From an uncultured Bacilli bacterium (GTDB lineage: Bacteria; Bacillota_I; Bacilli_A; RF39; UBA660), in the NCBI GenBank assembly GCA_904420615.1, contig CAJFVY010000018.1, forward strand, positions 1 to 51,741: a stretch of 51,741 nucleotides of DNA. The letters run 5' to 3'. Positions within the stretch are counted from its first letter, which is position 1. Every line of letters begins with the position of its first letter. Positions 5,735 to 13,011 of this stretch are shown here, piece after piece. Below the pieces are notes generated by a model that was given only the letters and a program-made list of their open reading frames with translations, was not told where the DNA came from and did no database searches. The position numbers and the translations under genes were made by a program.

Positions 5735-6289
5735 CTAAATTTTAACATATTTAAAGCATTCTTTTTGATGAGAATTAATTACACCAATAGCCTGTAAATA
5801 AGAATAGATAATAGTAGTACCGACAAACTTCATTCCTCGTTTTTTTAAATCATGTGAAATAGTATCTGATAGTTCTGATCTTGTTTTATCTATCTCATAG
5901 ACAATTTTATTTTTTGTAAAATGCCAAATATAATTAGAAAAAGCTCCATATTCTTGTTGTATATTTTTAAATATTTTAGAATTATTAATAGCTGCTTTAA
6001 TTTTTAATTTATTTCTAACTATATTTTTATTATTTAATAATTCTTCTATTTTTTTATCATCATATTGACAGATTAAATTAATATCAAAATGATCAAAAGC
6101 TTTCTCAAAAAAACTTCTCTTATTTAAAATACATTCCCAAGATAAACCAGCCTGAAAAGACTCTAGTATTAAAAGCTCTAATAATTTTTGATCATCATAA
6201 AGAGGCTCTCCCCATTCTTCATCATGATACTTTATATATAACTCATTCTTATCATTTACCCAATTACAACGTTTCATCTTGTTTTTCAT
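5735..6289 (-). CDS. tag: DNA-3-methyladenine glycosylase I
   Basis: 184 aa with the hallmark YHDEEWG motif, a QAGLSW segment and a C-terminal zinc-site-like H..C. Length is typical of Tag. Confidence 0.85.
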   Translation of the reverse strand: MKNKMKRCNWVNDKNELYIKYHDEEWGEPLYDDQKLLELLILESFQAGLSWECILNKRSFFEKAFDHFDINLICQYDDKKIEELLNNKNIVRNKLKIKAAINNSKIFKNIQQEYGAFSNYIWHFTKNKIVYEIDKTRSELSDTISHDLKKRGMKFVGTTIIYSYLQAIGVINSHQKECFKYVKI

Positions 6290-6290
6290 G

Positions 6291-6797
6291 TTATATTTTA
6301 ACTCCTTCTAACTCTAATAAATCCTTTTTGATCTTAATTCCACCAGCATAACCAGTAAGACTATTACTAGATCCTATTACGCGATGACAAGGAATAATAA
6401 TAGAAATCGGATTATGCGACACTGCCCCTCCAATAGCTTGAGCTGACATACTCTTCTTATGTAATCTCGAAGCTACTTCATGCGCTATTTCTCCATAAGT
6501 TCTAGTGTTACCATATGGAATATCACATAATATTTGCCATACTAGCTTTCTAAACTTACTACCATCAGGTTTTAATGATAATTCATCAATTTTAGGTTCT
6601 TCGCATTTAAAATACCGATCTAACCAATTTTTCGTTTGCATTAATATTGGAAGATCATCCTTTTCTATTAAGTTTTCTTTTAAACTTCCCAAATAATATT
6701 TTTGATTTTTTATCCATAACCCTATTAAATTGTTATTATCACTTACTAATAATAATTTACCAATTGGTGAATCATAATATGTTTTATATAATGACAT
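6291..6797 (-). CDS. ogt: Methylated-DNA-protein-cysteine methyltransferase
   Basis: 168 aa with the active-site motif IPCHRVI and a preceding TYGEIA helix-turn-helix segment. Confidence 0.85.
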   Translation of the reverse strand: MSLYKTYYDSPIGKLLLVSDNNNLIGLWIKNQKYYLGSLKENLIEKDDLPILMQTKNWLDRYFKCEEPKIDELSLKPDGSKFRKLVWQILCDIPYGNTRTYGEIAHEVASRLHKKSMSAQAIGGAVSHNPISIIIPCHRVIGSSNSLTGYAGGIKIKKDLLELEGVKI

Positions 6798-6846: not shown

Positions 6847-7527
6847 TCAAACTTTATATTTCCATACCCCTACTTTCCCTTTCAACTTTATTTGGTCCTT
6901 CACCAATTCGGCTTTTGAAAATATCCAAACATAATAACCTATCACAAGTGGATGATTTATATATTCTTTTGGGTAAGCTTGCATTTCTTTTATATTTTTT
7001 TCATCAATACGAATACAATCTAGTACTTTTACTTTACTATGTATATAACCATATTTTATCTTTTTTTTAAATATATTTTGATATTTCTGCAATTCTTTTT
7101 TGGATAACTTACTATTAGAGGCATGAATATAAATTTCTCCACAATAGGGTAATTTCATCTTTGTAATATAAATATTTATCTTATTCTCACTAATAAGACT
7201 AGCATATGGTTCTCTTACTGTCAGCATTTTTAAATACTGACTATTATTGTATAAAATACCTTTTTGTTTTAATTTTCTAATTCTATTATCAATAGAAGAA
7301 AAAGATCGATTTAACTTTTTAGCAAGTTCATCTTTTGTCATAACTAAATAATAATCTATTAATACTTGATCTTCTTCTTTTGTCCAAGACTTAGCTAATT
7401 TATCAGCATTTATTCTCCTAGCTCTATGATTAATAGAACTGACTGTACGATTTAAATGCTTAGCAATCTCTAATGAACCCTTTTCTTTATAATATCTTAA
7501 AATGTATGCATCTTCTTTTTTGTCCAT
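6847..7527 (-). CDS. SANT/Myb-like repeats plus C-terminal ASCH-like domain; probably the 3' part of the upstream gene
   Basis: 226 aa. Contains the repeat WTKEEDQVLIDYY and an ASCH-like segment (LTVREPYASLISENK...GEIYIHAS). Its first codons overlap the end of ORF 7497-9050 in the -1 frame. Confidence 0.6.
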   Translation of the reverse strand: MDKKEDAYILRYYKEKGSLEIAKHLNRTVSSINHRARRINADKLAKSWTKEEDQVLIDYYLVMTKDELAKKLNRSFSSIDNRIRKLKQKGILYNNSQYLKMLTVREPYASLISENKINIYITKMKLPYCGEIYIHASNSKLSKKELQKYQNIFKKKIKYGYIHSKVKVLDCIRIDEKNIKEMQAYPKEYINHPLVIGYYVWIFSKAELVKDQIKLKGKVGVWKYKV

Positions 7528-9050
7528 TTACCACTTCTATGTAATCCCAATCTATTAGCTCTACATATACAAGCTTCGCTTGTTCTATTTAACAAGGAAG
7601 CAACATATTTACTACCTTTATCAGGATAATATTTAGTTAATATGTTATCTTCTTCTTCCGTCCAACCAACTACATAATCAGGAATGATTCTGCTCTTATA
7701 ATCTTTTTTTACCTTTAACCAATTATTATAATATAATCTACTAACTTCTTTACTATCATAATTATAATATTCTTGATAAGAAAGTTCTAAATTATACCAT
7801 TCAAGAAATAAATTAGAATGATGAATAAACTCTAATACCTGTTTTTCAATATTTTCTTGTGTATATTTTATTCGTAACAAAGGTATCTGTTTCCTTTTAC
7901 AAAATTCATTCTTAATATGATCATGTCTTTGATTTGTTTTTAATATGACACTAGCAGGTATAACATGACTTCTATATACATTCGTTTCAAAAAAATGTTG
8001 TACTCCATCATATTCAATTAGTCCCATTAATTGATTCTCTTTATAAATTCCAAAATCAAATAATAATATATTTTTATCTTTACATTCTCTGAATCCCACT
8101 TCTTGTTTAAAGTCAATATGATTATCCAATAGAATTTGTTTAATTTTTTCTACTGGAGAACTATACTTTTGTTGATAAGCTATATTTAAATTAACTGCCT
8201 TTATCTTACATGATCTCATATTTCTTTTCGGAAGCAATTCAGAAACATATTTTCCAATTATGGGATAATATTTTTTTAAAATAGATATTTCTTCTTTCGT
8301 CCACTTTTTTGGATTATCATATTTTAAATGATGTTTACTGGCATAAATCTTACAACTATTTAATGTCTTATGTAGTTGTTTTGCTACCCAGGTTGGTCCT
8401 TTTTCAGCATAATGCTCATACAAAAATTTTATTTCTTCAAGAGTCCATCTTTCTTCTTTCCTGATTTTTAGAACTGCAGCTCTACTTTTACATGCTGTTT
8501 CAGATCTTTTTAAATACTTAGCTACATATTTCGTATCTTTACTAGGATAGTATTTTCTTAAAAAATTATCTTCTTCTTCACTCCAACGATCTTCAAAAAT
8601 ATATTTTATCCCTAATTCACTTGCTTTGGCCATACATACATTTCTATTCCGTCCTAATAATTTACTTACTTTTAAAGATCCATATTTAGGATAATATTGT
8701 TTTATAATATCCTCTTCTTCTTTTGTCCAATGATAATCTCTTTTAATATTAAGGCTCCCTGCCTTAGCTATACAAGATTCTTTTGACTTTCCTATTTTTT
8801 TAGAACACCACACTGCTCCTTTGGCACTATAGTTTTCCTTTAAAATTTTGATTTCTTCTTCTGTCCATTTCTTAGAATGATAACCTGATAATTTAGTTTT
8901 TTCCAAATTATTTAAATGATAAACCCTATTAACACAAGCCTTTTTAGTTCTTTTTAACAACTTAGCTATAGCAGAAGCTCCTAAACTATAGTATTGTTCT
9001 CTTAATAATTGATCTTCTTCAGTAATCCACTTTATATTTTTTCTCTGCAT
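7497..9050 (-). CDS. Seven SANT/Myb-like repeats flanking a Vsr/DUF559-like PD-(D/E)xK nuclease domain
   Basis: 517 aa. Seven ~47-aa units of W-T-x-E-E-(D/I)-x-x-L-x-x-x-Y-...-G-...-(A/S)-K-x-L-...-C-...-A. The central segment LLFDFGIY...GLIEYDGVQHF...RHDHIKNEFCKRKQIPLLRI is nuclease-like. Confidence 0.65.
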   Translation of the reverse strand: MQRKNIKWITEEDQLLREQYYSLGASAIAKLLKRTKKACVNRVYHLNNLEKTKLSGYHSKKWTEEEIKILKENYSAKGAVWCSKKIGKSKESCIAKAGSLNIKRDYHWTKEEEDIIKQYYPKYGSLKVSKLLGRNRNVCMAKASELGIKYIFEDRWSEEEDNFLRKYYPSKDTKYVAKYLKRSETACKSRAAVLKIRKEERWTLEEIKFLYEHYAEKGPTWVAKQLHKTLNSCKIYASKHHLKYDNPKKWTKEEISILKKYYPIIGKYVSELLPKRNMRSCKIKAVNLNIAYQQKYSSPVEKIKQILLDNHIDFKQEVGFRECKDKNILLFDFGIYKENQLMGLIEYDGVQHFFETNVYRSHVIPASVILKTNQRHDHIKNEFCKRKQIPLLRIKYTQENIEKQVLEFIHHSNLFLEWYNLELSYQEYYNYDSKEVSRLYYNNWLKVKKDYKSRIIPDYVVGWTEEEDNILTKYYPDKGSKYVASLLNRTSEACICRANRLGLHRSGKWTKKKMHTF

Positions 9051-9158
9051 GATATTTCTCCTACAAGTTTTTATCTAGTATAACATAGTGTTATCTAACC
9101 AATTGTAAAATTCTATACTTTATAGTATAATATGGTAAATTTTGGTAGTGAGGTTGTT

Positions 9159-10118
9159 ATGGGAAAAAAATATTTAGTAGAAGAAATTGATACAGAAGTA
9201 GAATTTGGTGTTATCAAGGTAATTGTTCCTATTATAGGATTTGGATTAGCTATTTTAGTTAATTATTCTTTTTTAAAGTCCGTAATAGAAAATATTCAAG
9301 ATATGGGACATATTGATAGTGAATCCTTAGGAATCTTAATCGGTGTTTTTCTTTCTCTATTAATTGGTTTAGTTATTTTTATTATAAATCGTTATCGTGG
9401 TGTAAAAGAAGCATCAACATATAGTTTCTTTACTATCTTAATAACTTCTATTTTTCTTATGTGGTTAGGTTCTATGATTGTTCCCCCTATCGCTTATTAT
9501 CATTTATATCATGAACTTGTCTTTACAATGGGAGACTTCTTCAAAACGTTAATCTTTAATTTTATTTTTTTAGCACTTTGTTCTCCTTTAGTAGCCTTAT
9601 TAGGAACAATTATTGTAACTATTTTAGGCTATCTTTTATCTATTCCTTGTTATAAGATTATTTATTGGTTAAAGAGTAAAAATATACAAAAAACTAAATG
9701 TGTAAAAGAAATACAGAAATTATGTCAAAAAATAGATATGAAAGAAAAAATAGTTCAAGTTCATTTATATAAAGATAAAGTTGAATTTTATATCAATAGT
9801 TTTACTAAATATGATGAAATATCTTTTACTAAACTAGGTTACTCTGATTTAAAACCATTATCACAACTTACTTTATTACATATAATAGAAAAAATAGCTA
9901 AAATAAAATTAACAATTGTTGAACGTAATTTTAAAAATGGCAAGGATGTTCTTATTGCTGATAATCGCTATTTAAGAAAAAAACTAATTAAGAATAGTAA
10001 AGAGTTAAATACTATGACTAAAAAATGTGATCTTCTTTTTGAAAAAATAGAAAAAAGAAAAGCCAAAGAGAAAAAAAGAGCCTATAAAAAGGCTGTTAAA
10101 GAAGGAAAAGATTGGTAA
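9159..10118 (+). CDS. Hypothetical polytopic membrane protein with Lys-rich C-terminus
   Basis: Several hydrophobic helices. I prefer the ATG at 9159, preceded by GTGAGG, over the tracked start at 9132. Confidence 0.5.
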   Translation: MGKKYLVEEIDTEVEFGVIKVIVPIIGFGLAILVNYSFLKSVIENIQDMGHIDSESLGILIGVFLSLLIGLVIFIINRYRGVKEASTYSFFTILITSIFLMWLGSMIVPPIAYYHLYHELVFTMGDFFKTLIFNFIFLALCSPLVALLGTIIVTILGYLLSIPCYKIIYWLKSKNIQKTKCVKEIQKLCQKIDMKEKIVQVHLYKDKVEFYINSFTKYDEISFTKLGYSDLKPLSQLTLLHIIEKIAKIKLTIVERNFKNGKDVLIADNRYLRKKLIKNSKELNTMTKKCDLLFEKIEKRKAKEKKRAYKKAVKEGKDW

Positions 10119-10125
10119 AGATGTT

Positions 10126-10308
10126 TTGAATCAGTCTTCTCTTTTCCTTTTTATTAAAGGCTTACTCAAATATGATATACCTAATTATTTATGGTTTATA
10201 GGATTTGAAAGAGGGTATATCAAAAAAGAAAATAAAACAATTGACGAAGATCTACTAAACTATGATTGGATAGAAGAATTAACAGACGGATATAAAGAAG
10301 AAGATTAA
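10126..10308 (+). CDS. Small hypothetical protein (TTG start)
   Basis: 60-codon ORF directly after the previous gene. A weak hairpin AGCGG-GAAT-CCGCT lies downstream. No motif. Confidence 0.3.
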   Translation: MNQSSLFLFIKGLLKYDIPNYLWFIGFERGYIKKENKTIDEDLLNYDWIEELTDGYKEED

Positions 10309-10513
10309 TAAAATTCTTCTTTTTTATTAGCGGGAATCCGCTTTATAAATATTTATATATATATATAAAATATATGTGGTTAAAAATTGGCTACTACTGG
10401 ATAATGACAAAAAAAGTTAAAAATAAAAACCTTTTAAAATCAACAAAAAAAATAAAAAAAGCACTGGATAAAATATTACTTAGTTAAATGTCGGAAAATT
10501 GTCGGAGAGTACT

Positions 10514-10550
10514 AAAAAAACGTGTCCGCAAAGTTATATTATCGGACACG
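10514..10550 (-). terminator. Rho-independent terminator of dinJ-yafQ
   Basis: On the minus strand, CGTGTCCG-(14 nt)-CGGACACG forms an 8-bp GC-rich stem followed by T7. It lies about 55 nt after the yafQ stop. Confidence 0.7.
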
Positions 10551-10606
10551 AAGGCTAATTTAATATTATTTTTATTATATAAAATTATACAAAAAAAGAA
10601 GTGTTA

Positions 10607-10897
10607 TTATTTATTTAACACTTCACTATGACTACCAGTATTTACTAACAATAAAACTATTTCGTCTTCTAAGTATTTATATATAAGTATCCAGTCGGGT
10701 TCGATATGACAATCTCTACAATCTTTAAATTTTTTATCATTGTATAATTGATGATCTCTATATTTAGGATCTAATTGTTGTTTTCTTGAAAGCATATCTA
10801 CTACATTTAATAATTTGTCAATATTTTTGCCTTGTTTAGTTACTTTTTTTAATGATTTTTTAAATTCTTTTGAATATTTTATTTTATAATTAGTCAT
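10607..10897 (-). CDS. yafQ: Type II toxin, YafQ/RelE family mRNA interferase
   Basis: 96 aa. YSKEFKKSLKK...LDPKYRDHQL...CRDCHIEPDWILIYK...LVNTGSHSEV matches the YafQ pattern. Overlaps the antitoxin gene by 8 nt. Confidence 0.8.
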   Translation of the reverse strand: MTNYKIKYSKEFKKSLKKVTKQGKNIDKLLNVVDMLSRKQQLDPKYRDHQLYNDKKFKDCRDCHIEPDWILIYKYLEDEIVLLLVNTGSHSEVLNK

Positions 10898-11204
10898 CAG
10901 ATAATAACGCCTCTTTTAAATCTTCAATATTGTTATAACTTTTATATTCTTTAGGGTGTTTTTCGATATAAGCAAGTTCTCTTGCTGTTCTTTCAAGTTC
11001 TTCTTTAGTAAAATATTGATATAATTCAAGATCTTCTTTAGGTATAGATACATCAAAAGGGATTCTACCACGCATTATTAGTTGCTTAATAGTCATATTG
11101 ATTAATCCACTCATACTAACACCTAATTTTTGAAGTATTGCTGTTGCTTGTTCTTTATCTTCTTTATCAATTTGAACGCTTATAGAAGTTGTTAAATTAG
11201 ACAT
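10890..11204 (-). CDS. dinJ: Type II antitoxin, DinJ/RelB family, with extra C-terminal segment
   Basis: ISVQIDKEDKEQATAILQKLGVSMSGLINMTIKQL is a ribbon-helix-helix DinJ pattern. The start is taken at M19 of the tracked ORF, preceded by AAAGGAG. A promoter sits inside the tracked N-terminal extension. Confidence 0.75.
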   Translation of the reverse strand: MSNLTTSISVQIDKEDKEQATAILQKLGVSMSGLINMTIKQLIMRGRIPFDVSIPKEDLELYQYFTKEELERTARELAYIEKHPKEYKSYNNIEDLKEALLSDD

Positions 11205-11229
11205 AATATCATCTCCTTTTCTGTTAATA

Positions 11230-11258
11230 AATATATCAATTTTTATATAATTTGTCAA
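11230..11258 (-). promoter_or_regulatory. Sigma-A-type promoter of dinJ-yafQ
   Basis: Minus strand reads TTGACA (11253-11258), a 17-nt spacer, then TGaTATATT extended -10 (11230-11235). It lies about 25 nt upstream of the dinJ ATG. Confidence 0.55.
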
Positions 11259-11506
11259 GTATTTTTATATAAGAATTATATGAAAATTATATATTTTCTA
11301 TTATATTATATACAATAATAACTATTTTATCCACTTTTTTATATTTTTTGCGGAAATACTATTAAATTTATATAAATTCATATAAAACAATGCTGTAGAA
11401 TGAATTTAAGTATATAATAATTATCCATCTTTTTTAGAAAAAACACTTAAAATCGCCCTAAAATAGTTTCTATTTTATTTCATGTTTTTATCCTGTAAAT
11501 ATATAA

Positions 11507-11586
11507 TGATAGTGCTAAGATAAAAATGTAGGAAATGACTAAAATAAAAATGTCAGAAAACCTACAAACTTATCTTAGCACTATCA
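11507..11586. repeat. Perfect 17-bp inverted repeat enclosing a second 6-bp stem (80-nt structured element)
   Basis: TGATAGTGCTAAGATAA (11507-11523) and TTATCTTAGCACTATCA (11570-11586) are exact reverse complements. Inside them, TGTAGG...CCTACA also pairs. Confidence 0.8.
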
Positions 11587-11916
11587 CTTGGCATATTTAT
11601 AATAACATAAAAATGACTTTTACAAATCGCTTTGTTTTATGTTTGAAAAGTTCGAGTTTGATATCAATCTGGTGCGAGTGTATAAATATCACTCATCAAT
11701 AACATTAGAACACTTTTTAATAAATACAGAATAAAAAATATCTTTTTTAATTTTTTTATAGTAAAATACTATATATAAAGGAAGGGATTTTGCATGAAAA
11801 ATATTTAATATGAATATATTCAAAGAATACAAAGTCATTATGTAGGTAGTGACTGCATTCAAATAACAATACCACATCATCTTAACAATGGAATAACAAT
11901 ATTAAATTCAGATGAA

Positions 11917-12723
11917 ATGACATATCATTACCTACCTAATTCGCCTTTTTTCATAAATAAATATATTTCTGATGAAAGAAAAGAACACTTTCCATATTCA
12001 CAAACACCTACTCATAACAGAATAGTGAGAGGTAAAACAAAAGAATATATCAACCAACTATTCGATTTTAATAGAGTTTATATTGAAATTGCAGATGGCA
12101 TGATTAAAGAAGATTATGTTATTAAAGATGGAGATGAAGCGCTATTAGTAACAAAATATATTCTTCCTAATCAAGAATCAACCAGATTTGGAAATCGCGA
12201 AGAAGTTGAAAGATTAATTAATTCTTCAAATGGTGGTATTTATTCTCAAGATGGTGGATATTGGCAACTTTTATCATTACCAAGTAATGAAAGTATTTTA
12301 GACAGTTATAAAGAACATATAATTAAAAAAAGAAAAAATGAGCTAAATTATTATGATGGAAATGGCACTGATAAAGATTTAACAGAATATTTTTATAAAA
12401 GTGTTGATAAAATGACTATTGAAGATGTTCCTGAAGGTATTACTGTAGTTAATGATGCTATATTAGTTTCTGTTGAAAAAAATGAAATTGAGAGCATTAA
12501 AGGCATTACGGTAAAATTTTATGGCGCTGATAGTTATATGGTAGAATTTTATGATTTTCCTATTACAATTTATAGTTTAAATGATATGAAGCAATTAGAA
12601 CAAACAAATTCTAGAAAAATACCGGAACCTAAATTTCCAAGATTTTTAAATCCAAAAATTGATTCAGAATATATCAAAAAAGAAAAAAAACACGCATTAA
12701 GTTTAATACGAGCAAAAAAATAA
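11917..12723 (+). CDS. Hypothetical protein
   Basis: 268-aa ORF, the only sizeable plus-strand gene in this neighbourhood. No motif recognised. Confidence 0.5.
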   Translation: MTYHYLPNSPFFINKYISDERKEHFPYSQTPTHNRIVRGKTKEYINQLFDFNRVYIEIADGMIKEDYVIKDGDEALLVTKYILPNQESTRFGNREEVERLINSSNGGIYSQDGGYWQLLSLPSNESILDSYKEHIIKKRKNELNYYDGNGTDKDLTEYFYKSVDKMTIEDVPEGITVVNDAILVSVEKNEIESIKGITVKFYGADSYMVEFYDFPITIYSLNDMKQLEQTNSRKIPEPKFPRFLNPKIDSEYIKKEKKHALSLIRAKK

Positions 12724-12922
12724 GATGATTATGAAAGTGGTATTTAATCATCTTTTTCTTTGGCATTTTATAAATGTTGAAGTAGTGTGTGATAACTCTT
12801 ATATAAATTCTAGTCTTTACTTTAAAGATTAATCAAAAGTTATTTCTTAATAACGAAAAAATCAACCCAATTTGAGTTGATATTTATATATAAAGTTCAA
12901 ATAGTTCGAACAGATTCGTCAA

Positions 12923-13011
12923 TGGTGCACATGAAGGGACTTGAACCCATACGAAGATCACTCTTCTGCAGATTTTGAGTCTGCCGCGTCTACCAATTCC
13001 GCCACATGTGC
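12923..13011 (-). tRNA. tRNA-Leu (anticodon CAA)
   Basis: Reverse complement has acceptor GCACATG/CATGTGC and anticodon stem GCAGA/TCTGC with loop CTCAAAA. There is a long variable arm (GAAGA-GTGA-TCTTC), a T loop TTCAAGT and an encoded CCA. One T-T mismatch in the T stem. Confidence 0.85.

What the first reader, a model, noticed from the sequence alone, without database searches (positions are those of the whole stretch)
6847..9050. Unusual architecture: nine SANT/Myb-like repeats interrupted by a Vsr/DUF559-like nuclease and capped by an ASCH domain
Read through the junction, the gene encodes six ~47-aa repeats, then a PD-(D/E)xK-type module (FDFGIY...IEYDGVQHF...HIKNEFCKRKQIPLLRI), then three more repeats, then an ASCH (PUA-like) domain. 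Each repeat has a conserved Trp, an acidic EE(D) and YY, and in most copies a Cys (..C..(K/R)A). Long arrays of Myb-like DNA-binding units flanking a nuclease are reminiscent of programmable or multi-site DNA recognition. ASCH domains are linked to RNA or modified-base binding. The gene sits directly next to tag and ogt (alkylation repair). That placement hints at a DNA-damage, restriction or defence role.
Basis: partly seen in the sequence, partly recalled or inferred. Interest (0 to 1): 0.6.

Follow-up and report, generated by a model that had tools for sequence, protein, structure and literature searches.

The report
Myb-repeat nuclease gene, frameshifted copy
This is a rare accessory gene for a large DNA-cutting enzyme: a phage-type "homing endonuclease" nuclease sits between nine Myb-like DNA-binding repeats and carries an inactive-looking ASCH domain, and here the gene is split in two by loss of one A in a run of seven.

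Summary
The two overlapping minus-strand ORFs, 7497-9050 and 6847-7527, are one ancestral 734-aa gene. The window has A6 where nine intact alleles of the same species have A7. The same A6 allele lies on two other metagenome contigs, so it is a real clone variant, not a programmed frameshift.

The protein has four parts:
- Six Myb repeats, then three more after the nuclease (Pfam E 3e-21, nine stretches).
- A restriction-endonuclease-fold domain with invariant D332, E346, D348, H352, D377 and K380.
- A C-terminal ASCH domain.

The nuclease domain belongs to a large family (8,581 representatives). That family includes DUF2726 and phage "homing / intron-encoded / VSR homing endonuclease" proteins. 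One relative interrupts terL in a Staphylococcus phage.

The ASCH fold is clear (TRIP4 ASCH, E 8e-9, TM 0.72). It lacks the Lys/Glu of the GxKxxExR motif, and about half of the family has no ASCH at all.

The full architecture was found in only 7 of about 185,000 species genomes, and in none of 40 congeners. Those congeners do keep the ogt-tag pair, so the neighbour argument is weak.

Best reading: a free-standing, homing-endonuclease-like, long-site DNA nuclease in variable genome regions. Function is untested.

The parts
6847..9050 (-). Whole gene, ancestrally one 734-aa ORF. Here it is split into a 517-aa ORF (7497-9050) and a 226-aa ORF (6847-7527) that overlap by 31 nt.
   Evidence: Intact 734-aa alleles at 97-99% identity occur in the same synteny.
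8166..9029 (-). Myb/SANT-like repeats 1-6 (residues 8-295; unit starts at 8, 62, 108, 156, 202, 250).
   Evidence: Pfam PF00249 E 3.2e-21 with nine stretches, PF13921 E 2.3e-15. Repeat register and consensus. PHROG 323 'transcriptional regulator, D5-like', E 1e-51.
7821..8162 (-). Nuclease core (residues about 297-410), restriction-endonuclease fold of the Vsr/DUF559/DUF2726 kind. Invariant residues: S297, D332, E346, D348, G349, H352, D377, K380, C384, R393, Y396.
   Evidence: AF2 pLDDT above 90 in the core, topology alpha-beta-beta-beta-alpha-beta-alpha. PDB Foldseek gives TnsA, R2 RLE and Vsr. BFVD gives 78 hits at E<=1e-3, including DUF2726 and 'VSR homing endonuclease' proteins. PHROGs 559, 9084 and 7140. 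8,581 relatives.
7665..7820 (-). Helical linker between the nuclease and repeat 7 (residues 411-462). It is conserved (W/Y-N-P..LS..EYY) only within the Myb-nuclease family.
   Evidence: Alignment A1. The AF2 model has low confidence beyond model residue 145, about protein residue 436.
7527..7664 (-). Myb repeat 7 (residues 463-508).
7515..7521 (-). Frameshift site. The mRNA reads A_AAA_AAG (an A6 run) in the 0 frame of the upstream ORF. Intact alleles have A7 (ACA AAA AAA GAA).
7390..7526 (-). Myb repeat 8 (fused residues 509-554). The frameshift falls in its first helix.
7249..7386 (-). Myb repeat 9 (fused residues 556-601). Cys is replaced by Ile, giving an SSI(D/N)xR helix 3.
6850..7236 (-). 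ASCH (PUA-like beta-barrel) domain, fused residues about 606-734. It lacks the Lys/Glu/Arg of the GxKxxExR motif.
   Evidence: AF2 pLDDT 82.5. Foldseek TRIP4 ASCH E 7.6e-9, TM 0.72, plus EOLA1, TTHA0113 and ZmASCH. Profile against PDB E 0.015 over the full length. 36%-identical proteins carry PF04266. Motif columns.
5735..6797 (-). Downstream neighbours ogt (6291-6797) and tag (5735-6289). This two-gene unit is conserved across the genus and is not part of the element.
   Evidence: Pfam. The pair is conserved in congeners without the Myb-nuclease gene. No terminator-like site was found on the minus strand between the gene and ogt.

Best explanation
The locus is a frameshifted allele of a rare accessory gene. 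The gene encodes a large modular DNA endonuclease of the homing-endonuclease kind.

Shown:
- The ancestral product is one 734-aa protein.
- A Vsr/DUF2726-type restriction-fold nuclease lies between six N-terminal and three C-terminal Myb-type helix-turn-helix repeats. Its putative metal-binding and catalytic residues are all conserved.
- An ASCH barrel follows. It has lost the residues needed for the known ASCH amidohydrolase activity.

Inferred:
- The nine repeats lay the protein along several tens of base pairs of DNA on both sides of the nuclease. The variable helix-3 positions (29, 30, 33, 37, 38 of the unit) make the base contacts.
- The nuclease nicks or cuts at a long asymmetric site.
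- ASCH acts as an extra, dispensable nucleic-acid-binding module.
- The gene behaves as a free-standing, selfish or conflict-related element. It is scattered among gut Clostridia/Bacilli, lies in variable regions next to toxin-antitoxin pairs, recombinases and a tRNA, and often decays.

In this genome's clone, loss of one A from an A7 run splits the gene. The upstream product would be six repeats, the nuclease and repeat 7 (517 aa). A separately started 226-aa product would be doubtful. Low-level -1 slippage on the resulting A_AAA_AAG could restore some full-length protein, but that would be a by-product and not a programmed event.
For: Frameshift:
- The window has A6. L001, L120 and nine 734-aa variants have A7.
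- The A6 allele lies on two further contigs from other samples, each 100% identical to the window.
- pN/pS is 0.24-0.28 among alleles.

Myb array:
-.

Nuclease:
- The AF2 core is confident.
- PDB fold matches are all restriction-endonuclease-like. Vsr has probability 0.82-0.84 and TM 0.42-0.51.
- BFVD gives strong matches to DUF2726 proteins, 'Group I intron-associated VSR homing endonuclease' and 'Homing endonuclease'.
- PHROG 9084 'homing endonuclease' E 1.4e-18, PHROG 559 E 1.8e-21, PHROG 7140 'intron encoded nuclease' E 5.6e-11.
- The phage relative gp188 of phiSA_BS1 lies between fragments of terL. The relative in Lactococcus phage WRP3 lies among nrd genes and other endonuclease genes.
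- DUF2726 is grouped with Vsr, DUF559 and I-Bth0305I (3r3p) in PMC3424549.
- Invariant D/E/D/H/D/K.

Portable DNA-binding arrays on such nucleases:
- Relatives carry DUF4379 zinc-finger repeats, CapR or DUF723 in front of the same nuclease.
- The same Myb arrays are fused to HNH, Mrr_cat plus helicase, and SNF2 helicase.

Accessory status:
- 0 of 40 congeners have the gene, and only 7 loci were found in the GTDB species set.
- Variable contexts include a MazF-like toxin, a serine recombinase with Rep_trans, Cas9, and YafQ-RelB with tRNA-Leu.
- Decay is frequent: in-frame loss of repeat units, truncations and an ASCH deletion.
Against: - No cleavage, binding or homing has been shown.
- The gene is not in an intron, an intein or a recognisable phage.
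- Within the species it sits at one fixed locus in every contig seen. No empty site was observed.
- It is under purifying selection, which also fits a host-beneficial function.
- The Pfam DUF2726 score of this protein is below the cut-off.
- hhalign against E. coli Vsr is not significant.
- No solved structure matches by sequence.
- The PDB fold E-values are weak (>=0.015).
- DNA glycosylase genes recur nearby in four loci, which a purely selfish reading does not explain.
Confidence: 0.45

Rival explanations
1. It is an anti-phage or anti-plasmid restriction-like nuclease, type IV-like. The ASCH domain (PUA-like superfamily) reads a modified base, or the Myb array reads foreign DNA, and the nuclease then cuts invader DNA.
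For: - Nuclease plus PUA-like reader is the architecture of modification-dependent restriction enzymes. Distant fold matches of the ASCH model include the McrB N-domains and a 5hmC-specific endonuclease.
- ASCH is predicted to bind modified bases (PMC4738411).
- The gene lies in variable regions beside TA modules and, in L002, beside CRISPR-Cas9.
- Related Myb arrays are fused to Mrr_cat with a helicase.
- Distribution is sporadic.
Against: - No PADLOC model matches.
- ASCH is missing, truncated or internally deleted in at least 10 of 16 family representatives.
- The closest nuclease relatives with a described role are intron-associated or free-standing phage endonucleases.
- There is no consistent defence-island context.
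Confidence: 0.2
2. It is a DNA-repair or damage-processing nuclease that works with base-excision or alkylation repair (Ogt, Tag, UDG). The model is Vsr, which nicks next to a lesion.
For: - ogt-tag lies directly downstream on the same strand, with no terminator-like site between.
- tag is two genes downstream in L006/L044. UDG is directly upstream in L002 and L040.
- The fold resembles Vsr.
- The eukaryotic ASCH protein TRIP4 belongs to the ASCC complex (PMC10076317).
Against: - The ogt-tag pair is conserved in the genus without this gene.
- Other contexts have no repair gene.
- Only 7 species genomes carry the gene, which is unlike a repair function.
- Truncation and frameshifts are frequent.
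- Nine sequence-reading HTH repeats are not expected for a lesion-specific enzyme.
Confidence: 0.1
3. It is mainly a DNA-binding regulator or nucleoid-organising protein. The nuclease domain serves as a dimerisation or DNA-clamping module and does not cut.
For: - PHROG 323 and PHROG 14101 label Myb-array proteins as 'transcriptional regulator'.
- Firmicute Myb-type HTH proteins (RsfA-like) are transcription factors (PMC7824862).
- The gene is under purifying selection at a fixed locus.
Against: All candidate active-site residues are invariant across the family and its distant relatives. That is not expected for a domain that has lost catalysis. The PHROG regulator labels are annotation by similarity only.
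Confidence: 0.1
4. The split is a programmed -1 ribosomal frameshift (dnaX-like), or a phase-variable poly-A switch, that sets the ratio of a short form (seven repeats plus nuclease) to the full-length form.
For: - An exact A_AAA_AAG heptamer lies in the 0 frame, and a -1 slip restores the repeat consensus.
- The A6 allele is seen in several samples.
Against: - Nine other alleles of the same species, and all orthologues, are single ORFs.
- There is no stable downstream structure: MFE -5.3 kcal/mol, z +1.36, and 187 of 200 shuffles fold at least as well.
- The gene has eleven A-runs of six or more, so an indel in one is ordinary.
- The three A6 contigs are 100% identical and so represent one clone.
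Confidence: 0.05

Closest known systems
Vsr-like ('EDxHD') homing endonucleases such as I-Bth0305I and phage Hef, and the DUF2726 / 'VSR homing endonuclease' proteins of large Firmicute phages
   Same: - The nuclease has the restriction-endonuclease fold of the Vsr/DUF559/DUF2726 clade, with a conserved Asp, an E-x-D-G-x-x-H strand and a helix Asp.
- It is joined to repeated small DNA-binding modules (two NUMOD/HTH motifs in I-Bth0305I, which footprints about 60 bp; PMC3239194).
- Relatives are intron-associated or free-standing in phage genomes.
   Different: - Neither sequence profiles nor the listed top 50 PDB fold matches recover 3r3p, so direct membership in the EDxHD lineage is not shown.
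- The DNA-binding part is nine Myb repeats on both sides of the nuclease, not a short N-terminal region.
- An ASCH domain is added.
- The gene is chromosomal, at 734 aa against about 270-330 aa, and is not in an intron or intein.
DUF4379 (treble-clef zinc finger) - DUF2726 nucleases, the commonest architecture of this nuclease family
   Same: The C-terminal nuclease domain is the same at 35-50% identity, including the S-x-G-E helix, FDF, IEYDGxQH, D..K...C and IPLLRI motifs. It is preceded by an array of small repeated DNA-binding units.
   Different: Zinc-finger repeats are replaced by Myb HTH repeats, and the CxxC just before the nuclease is absent. The nuclease is internal, not C-terminal. 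The family is itself uncharacterised.
E. coli Vsr (very short patch repair endonuclease)
   Same: Best global fold match among solved structures: 1vsr and 1cw0, probability 0.82-0.84, TM 0.42-0.51. The spacing of Asp...His...Asp resembles Vsr D51/H69/D97.
   Different: There is no significant sequence-profile similarity (hhalign probability 0.14). No Vsr zinc-site pattern is present. No linked cytosine methyltransferase was seen. Multi-repeat DNA-binding arms are added.
ASCH domains of TRIP4/ASC-1, EOLA1 and TTHA0113
   Same: Same beta-barrel fold over the whole domain: E 7.6e-9 to 3e-5, TM up to 0.72. TRIP4 ASCH has been crystallised with dsDNA (8yfi, 8yfj, 9kyl).
   Different: The GxKxxExR Lys and Glu, shown to be essential for ac4C deacetylation in TthASCH, EOLA1 and TRIP4 (bioRxiv 10.64898/2026.02.27.708502), are replaced here by Ile and Tyr. 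The other fused copies have other substitutions at the Lys column and a hydrophobic residue (Ile, Leu, Phe) at the Glu column. Stand-alone ASCH proteins of the same genus keep the motif.
Eukaryotic Myb / SANT repeats and Firmicute RsfA-like Myb-type HTH proteins
   Same: The unit matches the Myb consensus closely: W-T-x-E-E-D-x-x-L ... G ... W ... I-A-x-x-L-x-R-T-x-x-x-C-x-x-R. This includes the helix-3 Cys.
   Different: The third Trp is replaced by Ala. There are nine tandem units, against 1-3 in most transcription factors. The array is fused to a nuclease.

Membership tests
Myb/SANT-like HTH repeat (Pfam PF00249 / PF13921) | Profile match above the curated cut-off | tested here: met
   PF00249 scores 75.6 bits against 24.4, E 3.2e-21, nine stretches. 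PF13921 scores 57 bits against 22.9.
Myb/SANT-like HTH repeat (Pfam PF00249 / PF13921) | Three regularly spaced aromatic core residues (W...W...W) | tested here: inconclusive
   The first W is present in 99% of units. The second position is W in 39% and Y in 12%. The third position is Ala in 81%.
Myb/SANT-like HTH repeat (Pfam PF00249 / PF13921) | Binds DNA through helix 3 | not testable with these tools
   The only indication is that the variable positions (29, 30, 33, 37, 38) cluster in the presumed helix 3 (helix assignment by analogy with the Myb repeat, the repeats were not folded here).
Vsr / DUF559 / DUF2726 clade of the PD-(D/E)xK superfamily | Alpha-beta-beta-beta-alpha-beta restriction-endonuclease core fold | tested here: met
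   AF2 model with H8-18, E22-33, E37-46, E49-57, H75-96, E100-104 and core pLDDT above 90. All meaningful PDB matches are restriction-endonuclease-like.
Vsr / DUF559 / DUF2726 clade of the PD-(D/E)xK superfamily | Pfam DUF2726 (PF10881) match above the cut-off | tested here: not met
   16-18 bits against 24.7 (E 0.002-0.01) for this protein. However, 47 of 58 relatives found by phmmer match DUF2726 (best E 5e-8). BFVD fold matches are named DUF2726.
Vsr / DUF559 / DUF2726 clade of the PD-(D/E)xK superfamily | Conserved catalytic Asp (strand 2), acidic/His motif (strand 3) and helix Asp | tested here: inconclusive
   D332, E346, D348, H352, D377 and K380 are invariant in orthologues and distant relatives. 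Their equivalence to Vsr D51/H64/H69/D97 rests on motif order and spacing, not on a superposition.
Vsr / DUF559 / DUF2726 clade of the PD-(D/E)xK superfamily | Detectable sequence-profile similarity to Vsr itself or to solved members (1cw0, 3hrl, 3r3p) | tested here: not met
   hhalign against E. coli Vsr gives probability 0.14. hmmsearch of PDB finds no member.
Homing endonuclease (functional class) | Encoded in a group I/II intron or intein, or free-standing in a mobile genome | tested here: not met
   The gene is chromosomal, between a membrane-protein gene and ogt. Relatives of the nuclease domain do meet the criterion: phiSA_BS1 gp188 lies between terL fragments.
Homing endonuclease (functional class) | Sporadic distribution and frequent degeneration | tested here: met
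   0 of 40 congeners and 7 loci in about 185,000 species genomes. Family members show a frameshift, truncations and unit deletions.
Homing endonuclease (functional class) | Cleaves the allele that lacks the gene and is copied into it | not testable with these tools
   No empty-site allele was found within the species.
ASCH domain (PF04266) | PUA-like beta-barrel fold matching solved ASCH structures | tested here: met
   Foldseek: TRIP4 ASCH E 7.6e-9, TM 0.72; EOLA1 1.9e-7; TTHA0113 3e-5; ZmASCH 2e-3.
ASCH domain (PF04266) | Pfam profile match | tested here: not met
   No hit at E<=10 for this domain. There is transitive support. P0122 and P0123 (35-36% identity, E 1e-14 and 2e-13) pass PF04266, as do the genus's stand-alone copies. 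The A3 profile hits TRIP4 ASCH at E 0.015 over the full length.
ASCH domain (PF04266) | GxKxxExR motif with catalytic Lys and Glu | tested here: not met
   The window has N, I, Y and T at the G, K, E and R columns. The other three fused copies also lack the Glu.
Modification-dependent (type IV) restriction enzymes with a PUA-like reader | Nuclease fused to a reader domain that is conserved in the family, or a match to known defence models | tested here: not met
   Only 4 of 16 representatives keep an intact ASCH; it is absent, truncated or internally deleted in at least 10. PADLOC gives no hit.
dnaX-type programmed -1 frameshift | X_XXY_YYZ heptamer in the 0 frame | tested here: met
   A_AAA_AAG at 7515-7521.
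dnaX-type programmed -1 frameshift | Stimulatory downstream structure, and conservation of the two-frame arrangement | tested here: not met
   The downstream 80 nt fold worse than shuffles (z +1.36). All other alleles and orthologues are single ORFs.

The most novel reading that the evidence does not exclude
The Myb-array nucleases would be an undescribed class of long-target, monomeric, modular DNA endonucleases. Each 46-aa Myb unit would read a few base pairs through its variable helix-3 positions. Whole units can be lost in frame by recombination, as seen in P0013 and P0011. The same array would be a portable targeting device reused on HNH, Mrr-helicase and SNF2 effectors in gut Firmicutes and their phages. 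On this reading, unit order would encode target order and could be re-engineered.
Probability: 0.12. Interest if true: 0.8.

Novelty: new variant of a known kind. Interest (0 to 1): 0.45.

Why it matters
Every building block is known. The combination is not described in the papers searched: a Vsr-type homing-endonuclease nuclease embedded in a nine-unit Myb array with a catalytically degenerate ASCH domain. It is very rare (7 species genomes plus this one).

If the array reads a long asymmetric site, the family offers a new natural scaffold for very specific DNA cutting. It would also show how Firmicutes and their phages reuse Myb arrays as targeting modules for nucleases and helicases.

One carrier, Bariatricus massiliensis AT12, is cultured, and intact alleles exist, so ordinary biochemistry can settle the question.

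For annotation, the two ORFs in this window should be read as one disrupted gene.

Tried and rejected
Exact-protein look-ups replaced it.
- Sequence profiles of the nuclease domain against PDB, with 9 and with 28 sequences: only chance hits.
- hhalign of the domain profile against E. coli Vsr: not significant.
- PADLOC: only marginal HTH-type hits on the last Myb repeats (CasR/CARF3, E about 0.002 or worse), no defence nuclease model. NCBIfam: only trivial HTH hits.
- Programmed frameshift: rejected as the main reading.
- Functional linkage to ogt/tag within the genus: rejected. The pair is conserved without the gene, and nothing else around it is syntenic.
- Search for an empty-site allele through the exact Ogt protein: only occupied loci were found.
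- Literature searches for Myb-array homing endonucleases returned nothing relevant. One paper mentions Myb-type HTH factors in jumbo phages.
- Promoter and terminator scans gave nothing above chance.
Full report
**1. What is in the sequence**

On the minus strand, a 517-aa ORF (7497-9050) and a 226-aa ORF (6847-7527) overlap by 31 nt. At the overlap the mRNA reads GGT AAA TGG ACA AAA AAG AAG ATG. The second frame gives ..KKEDAYILRYY, which continues the repeat pattern of the first ORF. Re-reading one A, equivalent to one extra A, yields a 734-aa protein.

A search of 5.8 billion proteins found a 734-aa protein, P0001, that is 97% identical over 100% of this fusion. Its contig L001 has the same gene order, is 98.6% identical over 4.5 kb, and has A7 where the window has A6.

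The 90% cluster holds nine distinct intact 734-aa variants from independent assemblies. All read WTKK(E/D)DAY. The exact 226-aa product of the window also occurs on two other metagenome contigs from other samples. These carry A6 and are 100% identical to the window over 2.0-2.3 kb.

The split is therefore a real one-base deletion carried by one clone of the species. It is not a random assembly error, and it is not the normal state of the gene.

**2. Is the frameshift programmed?**

The deletion creates an exact A_AAA_AAG heptamer in the 0 frame. Three results argue against a programmed event:
- The 80 nt downstream fold no better than shuffles (z +1.36).
- Every other allele and orthologue is a single ORF.
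- The gene contains eleven A-runs of six or more.

I read it as an ordinary homopolymer indel. Residual -1 slippage might give a little full-length protein, but that is inference. Among alleles pN/pS is 0.24-0.28, so the gene has been under purifying selection.

**3. The repeats**

Nine units start at residues 8, 62, 108, 156, 202 and 250, and then at 463, 509 and 556. Pfam Myb_DNA-binding matches at E 3.2e-21 in nine stretches.

Pooled over 14 orthologues, the unit is WTkEEdxfLkKYYPxKGxkwvakxLNRtxsACxnRAxxLgiK. W1 is 99% conserved, Y13 97%, and Cys32 78%. The most variable positions (29, 30, 33, 37, 38) lie in the third helix, as assigned by analogy with the Myb repeat; the repeats themselves were not folded. 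This is the classical Myb pattern, with the third Trp replaced by Ala.

Orthologues align collinearly, so each unit has its own identity. Whole units can be lost in frame:
- P0013 lacks units 3-5 (junction KKYYP|IIGKF).
- P0011 lacks unit 7.

**4. The middle module**

With 16 homologues as the alignment, AlphaFold2 gives a confident core (pLDDT above 90). Its order is helix, three strands, long helix, strand, helix, which is the restriction-endonuclease fold.

Matches to solved structures are weak but of one kind:
- TnsA.
- The R2 restriction-like endonuclease.
- Vsr (probability 0.82-0.84, TM 0.42-0.51).
- Several restriction enzymes, RecU and McrC.

Against predicted viral structures there are 78 matches at E<=1e-3. 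They are named 'DUF2726 domain-containing protein', 'Treble clef zinc finger domain-containing protein', 'Homing endonuclease', 'Group I intron-associated VSR homing endonuclease', 'Group I intron protein' and 'Restriction endonuclease' of giant viruses.

An exhaustive phmmer search found 8,581 representative proteins (716 at E<=1e-10). In most, the domain lies at the C-terminus of a 250-450-aa protein. Of 58 such relatives:
- 47 match Pfam DUF2726.
- 27 carry DUF4379 treble-clef zinc-finger repeats.
- 12 carry CapR.
- 7 carry DUF723.

The domain matches PHROG 559 (1.8e-21), PHROG 9084 'homing endonuclease' (1.4e-18) and PHROG 7140 'intron encoded nuclease' (5.6e-11). tblastn finds it in 308 phage records, mostly large Staphylococcus, Lactococcus, Bacillus and Enterococcus phages. 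In phage phiSA_BS1 the homologue lies between pieces of the large terminase gene. In Lactococcus phage WRP3 it lies among ribonucleotide reductase genes and other endonuclease genes.

Steczkiewicz et al. place DUF2726 in one clade with Vsr, DUF559 and the homing endonuclease I-Bth0305I (PMC3424549). The I-Bth0305I paper describes the Vsr-like 'EDxHD' homing lineage, with N-terminal repeated HTH motifs and a footprint of about 60 bp (PMC3239194).

Residues D332, E346, D348, G349, H352, D377, K380 and C384 are invariant in the orthologues and in distant relatives. The domain therefore looks catalytically competent.

There are limits to this assignment:
- This protein's own DUF2726 score is below the cut-off.
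- No solved structure is found by sequence.
- hhalign against E. coli Vsr is not significant.

I file the domain as 'works like, and is related to, the Vsr/DUF2726 homing-endonuclease nucleases'. I do not file it as a proven member of the EDxHD lineage.

**5. The C-terminal module**

A four-sequence profile hits the ASCH domain of TRIP4 over its full length, at E 0.015. Proteins 35-36% identical to the domain (E 1e-14 and 2e-13) carry Pfam ASCH above the cut-off, as do stand-alone copies common in the genus.

The AF2 model (pLDDT 82.5) matches several ASCH structures:
- TRIP4 ASCH, including its dsDNA complexes, at E 7.6e-9 and TM 0.72.
- EOLA1.
- TTHA0113.
- ZmASCH.

A 2026 preprint reports that the Lys and Glu of the GxKxxExR motif are essential for the ac4C deacetylase activity of ASCH proteins. 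In the alignment, the stand-alone bacterial copies and TRIP4 keep K..E.R. The four fused copies instead have Ile/Thr/Glu/Lys at the Lys column and Tyr/Ile/Leu/Phe at the Glu column. The fused ASCH is thus probably a binding or structural module.

It is also dispensable. Five representatives stop cleanly after repeat 9, and two have an internal deletion in ASCH. One is truncated within ASCH, and two more stop earlier still, after repeat 8 or after the nuclease domain.

**6. Distribution and context**

The window's genome is a 1.07-Mb, 92-contig assembly. None of 40 other species of its genus has the full gene. They have only stand-alone ASCH proteins.

A pattern scan of one genome per species (185,579 species) found 168 relatives of the nuclease domain. 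Only seven loci have the Myb-nuclease-Myb architecture:
- Two uncultured Clostridium.
- An uncultured Firmicutes bacterium.
- Clostridium sp. CAG:417.
- Lachnospiraceae UMGS1251.
- Bariatricus massiliensis AT12.
- An uncultured Eubacteriales bacterium.

The ogt-tag pair is present in 25 of the 40 congeners searched; in the ten congener loci examined the two genes are adjacent and nothing else around them is syntenic. Within the species, the gene is always at this locus.

Contexts of homologues differ:
- UDG upstream, with NT5C and Cas9 downstream (L002).
- UDG upstream (L040).
- tag two genes downstream and YhcG upstream (L006/L044).
- DUF4177/YaaC and DUF5661 (L004, L019).
- glmS-side genes with a separate ASCH gene downstream (L021, L022, L043).
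- NUDIX and a deaminase (L023).
- A MazF-like toxin (L041).
- A large serine recombinase with Rep_trans immediately upstream in B. massiliensis (L045).

In the window, the other side holds an orphan membrane protein, YafQ-RelB, another orphan and tRNA-Leu(CAA).

The recurrence of DNA glycosylase genes in four loci is more than I would expect by chance. I could not turn it into a test, so it stays an open observation.

**7. Wider family**

The same kind of Myb array is fused to several other effectors:
- C-terminal HNH nucleases (P0021, P0067).
- DUF4379 fingers (P0058, P0108).
- Mrr_cat plus a ResIII helicase (P0034).
- SNF2-type helicases, one named from a Caudoviricetes record (P0017, P0040).

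Myb arrays thus act as a portable DNA-targeting module in these bacteria and phages.

**8. Verdict**

The repair/ASCH-centred functional guess is weak.

The best-supported reading is a free-standing, homing-endonuclease-like, long-site DNA endonuclease of variable genome regions, present here as a frameshifted allele. A defence role is the main rival. Nothing about activity has been shown. The architecture is a new variant of a known kind.

I re-tested both.

Noticed in passing
own genome contig C16:18921-19331 (L009 1522-2433): A 303-aa protein joins an ASCH domain that keeps the K..E.R motif to a C-terminal region with a weak transglutaminase-like (DUF553) match. It is the paralogue of the fused ASCH domain.
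   Followed up: partly
genus relatives G022, G035, G009, G005 (L031, L032, L034, L035): The Ogt match lies in an open frame of 366-376 aa that also covers the Tag match. ogt and tag therefore appear fused into one gene in some species of the genus.
   Followed up: no
L045 4872-9812 (Bariatricus massiliensis AT12, NZ_LT574838.1): The cultured-isolate homologue lies directly downstream of a 524-aa large serine recombinase and a Rep_trans rolling-circle initiator. That places it at the edge of an integrated mobile element.
   Followed up: partly
window 9132-12922: An AT-rich islet (GC 21-24% through most of it) lies between the gene and tRNA-Leu(CAA) at 12923-13011. It holds a 328-aa membrane protein with no Pfam match, a YafQ-RelB toxin-antitoxin pair and a 268-aa orphan.
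   Followed up: partly
P0013, P0011, P0008 (metagenome homologues): These show in-frame loss of whole Myb units. Units 3-5 are lost at a KKYYP|IIGKF junction, and unit 7 is lost in another. The ASCH barrel has an internal deletion of about 47 aa. The repeat number changes by recombination between units.
   Followed up: partly
L026 1635-5220 (Staphylococcus phage phiSA_BS1): The large terminase gene is annotated as four separate pieces, with the nuclease-family ORF (gp188) between the first and second. This looks like unannotated introns.
   Followed up: no
nuclease domain, residues C323 and C384 (window about 7899-7901 and 8082-8084): Two cysteines are conserved with the active-site residues across distant relatives: C384 is invariant, C323 only nearly so. 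Whether they bind metal, as in the Vsr zinc site, is unknown.
   Followed up: no
L021 7906-8298, L022 10361-10753, L043 12740-13129: Family members that lack the fused ASCH domain have a stand-alone ASCH gene about 3 kb downstream in the same orientation.
   Followed up: no
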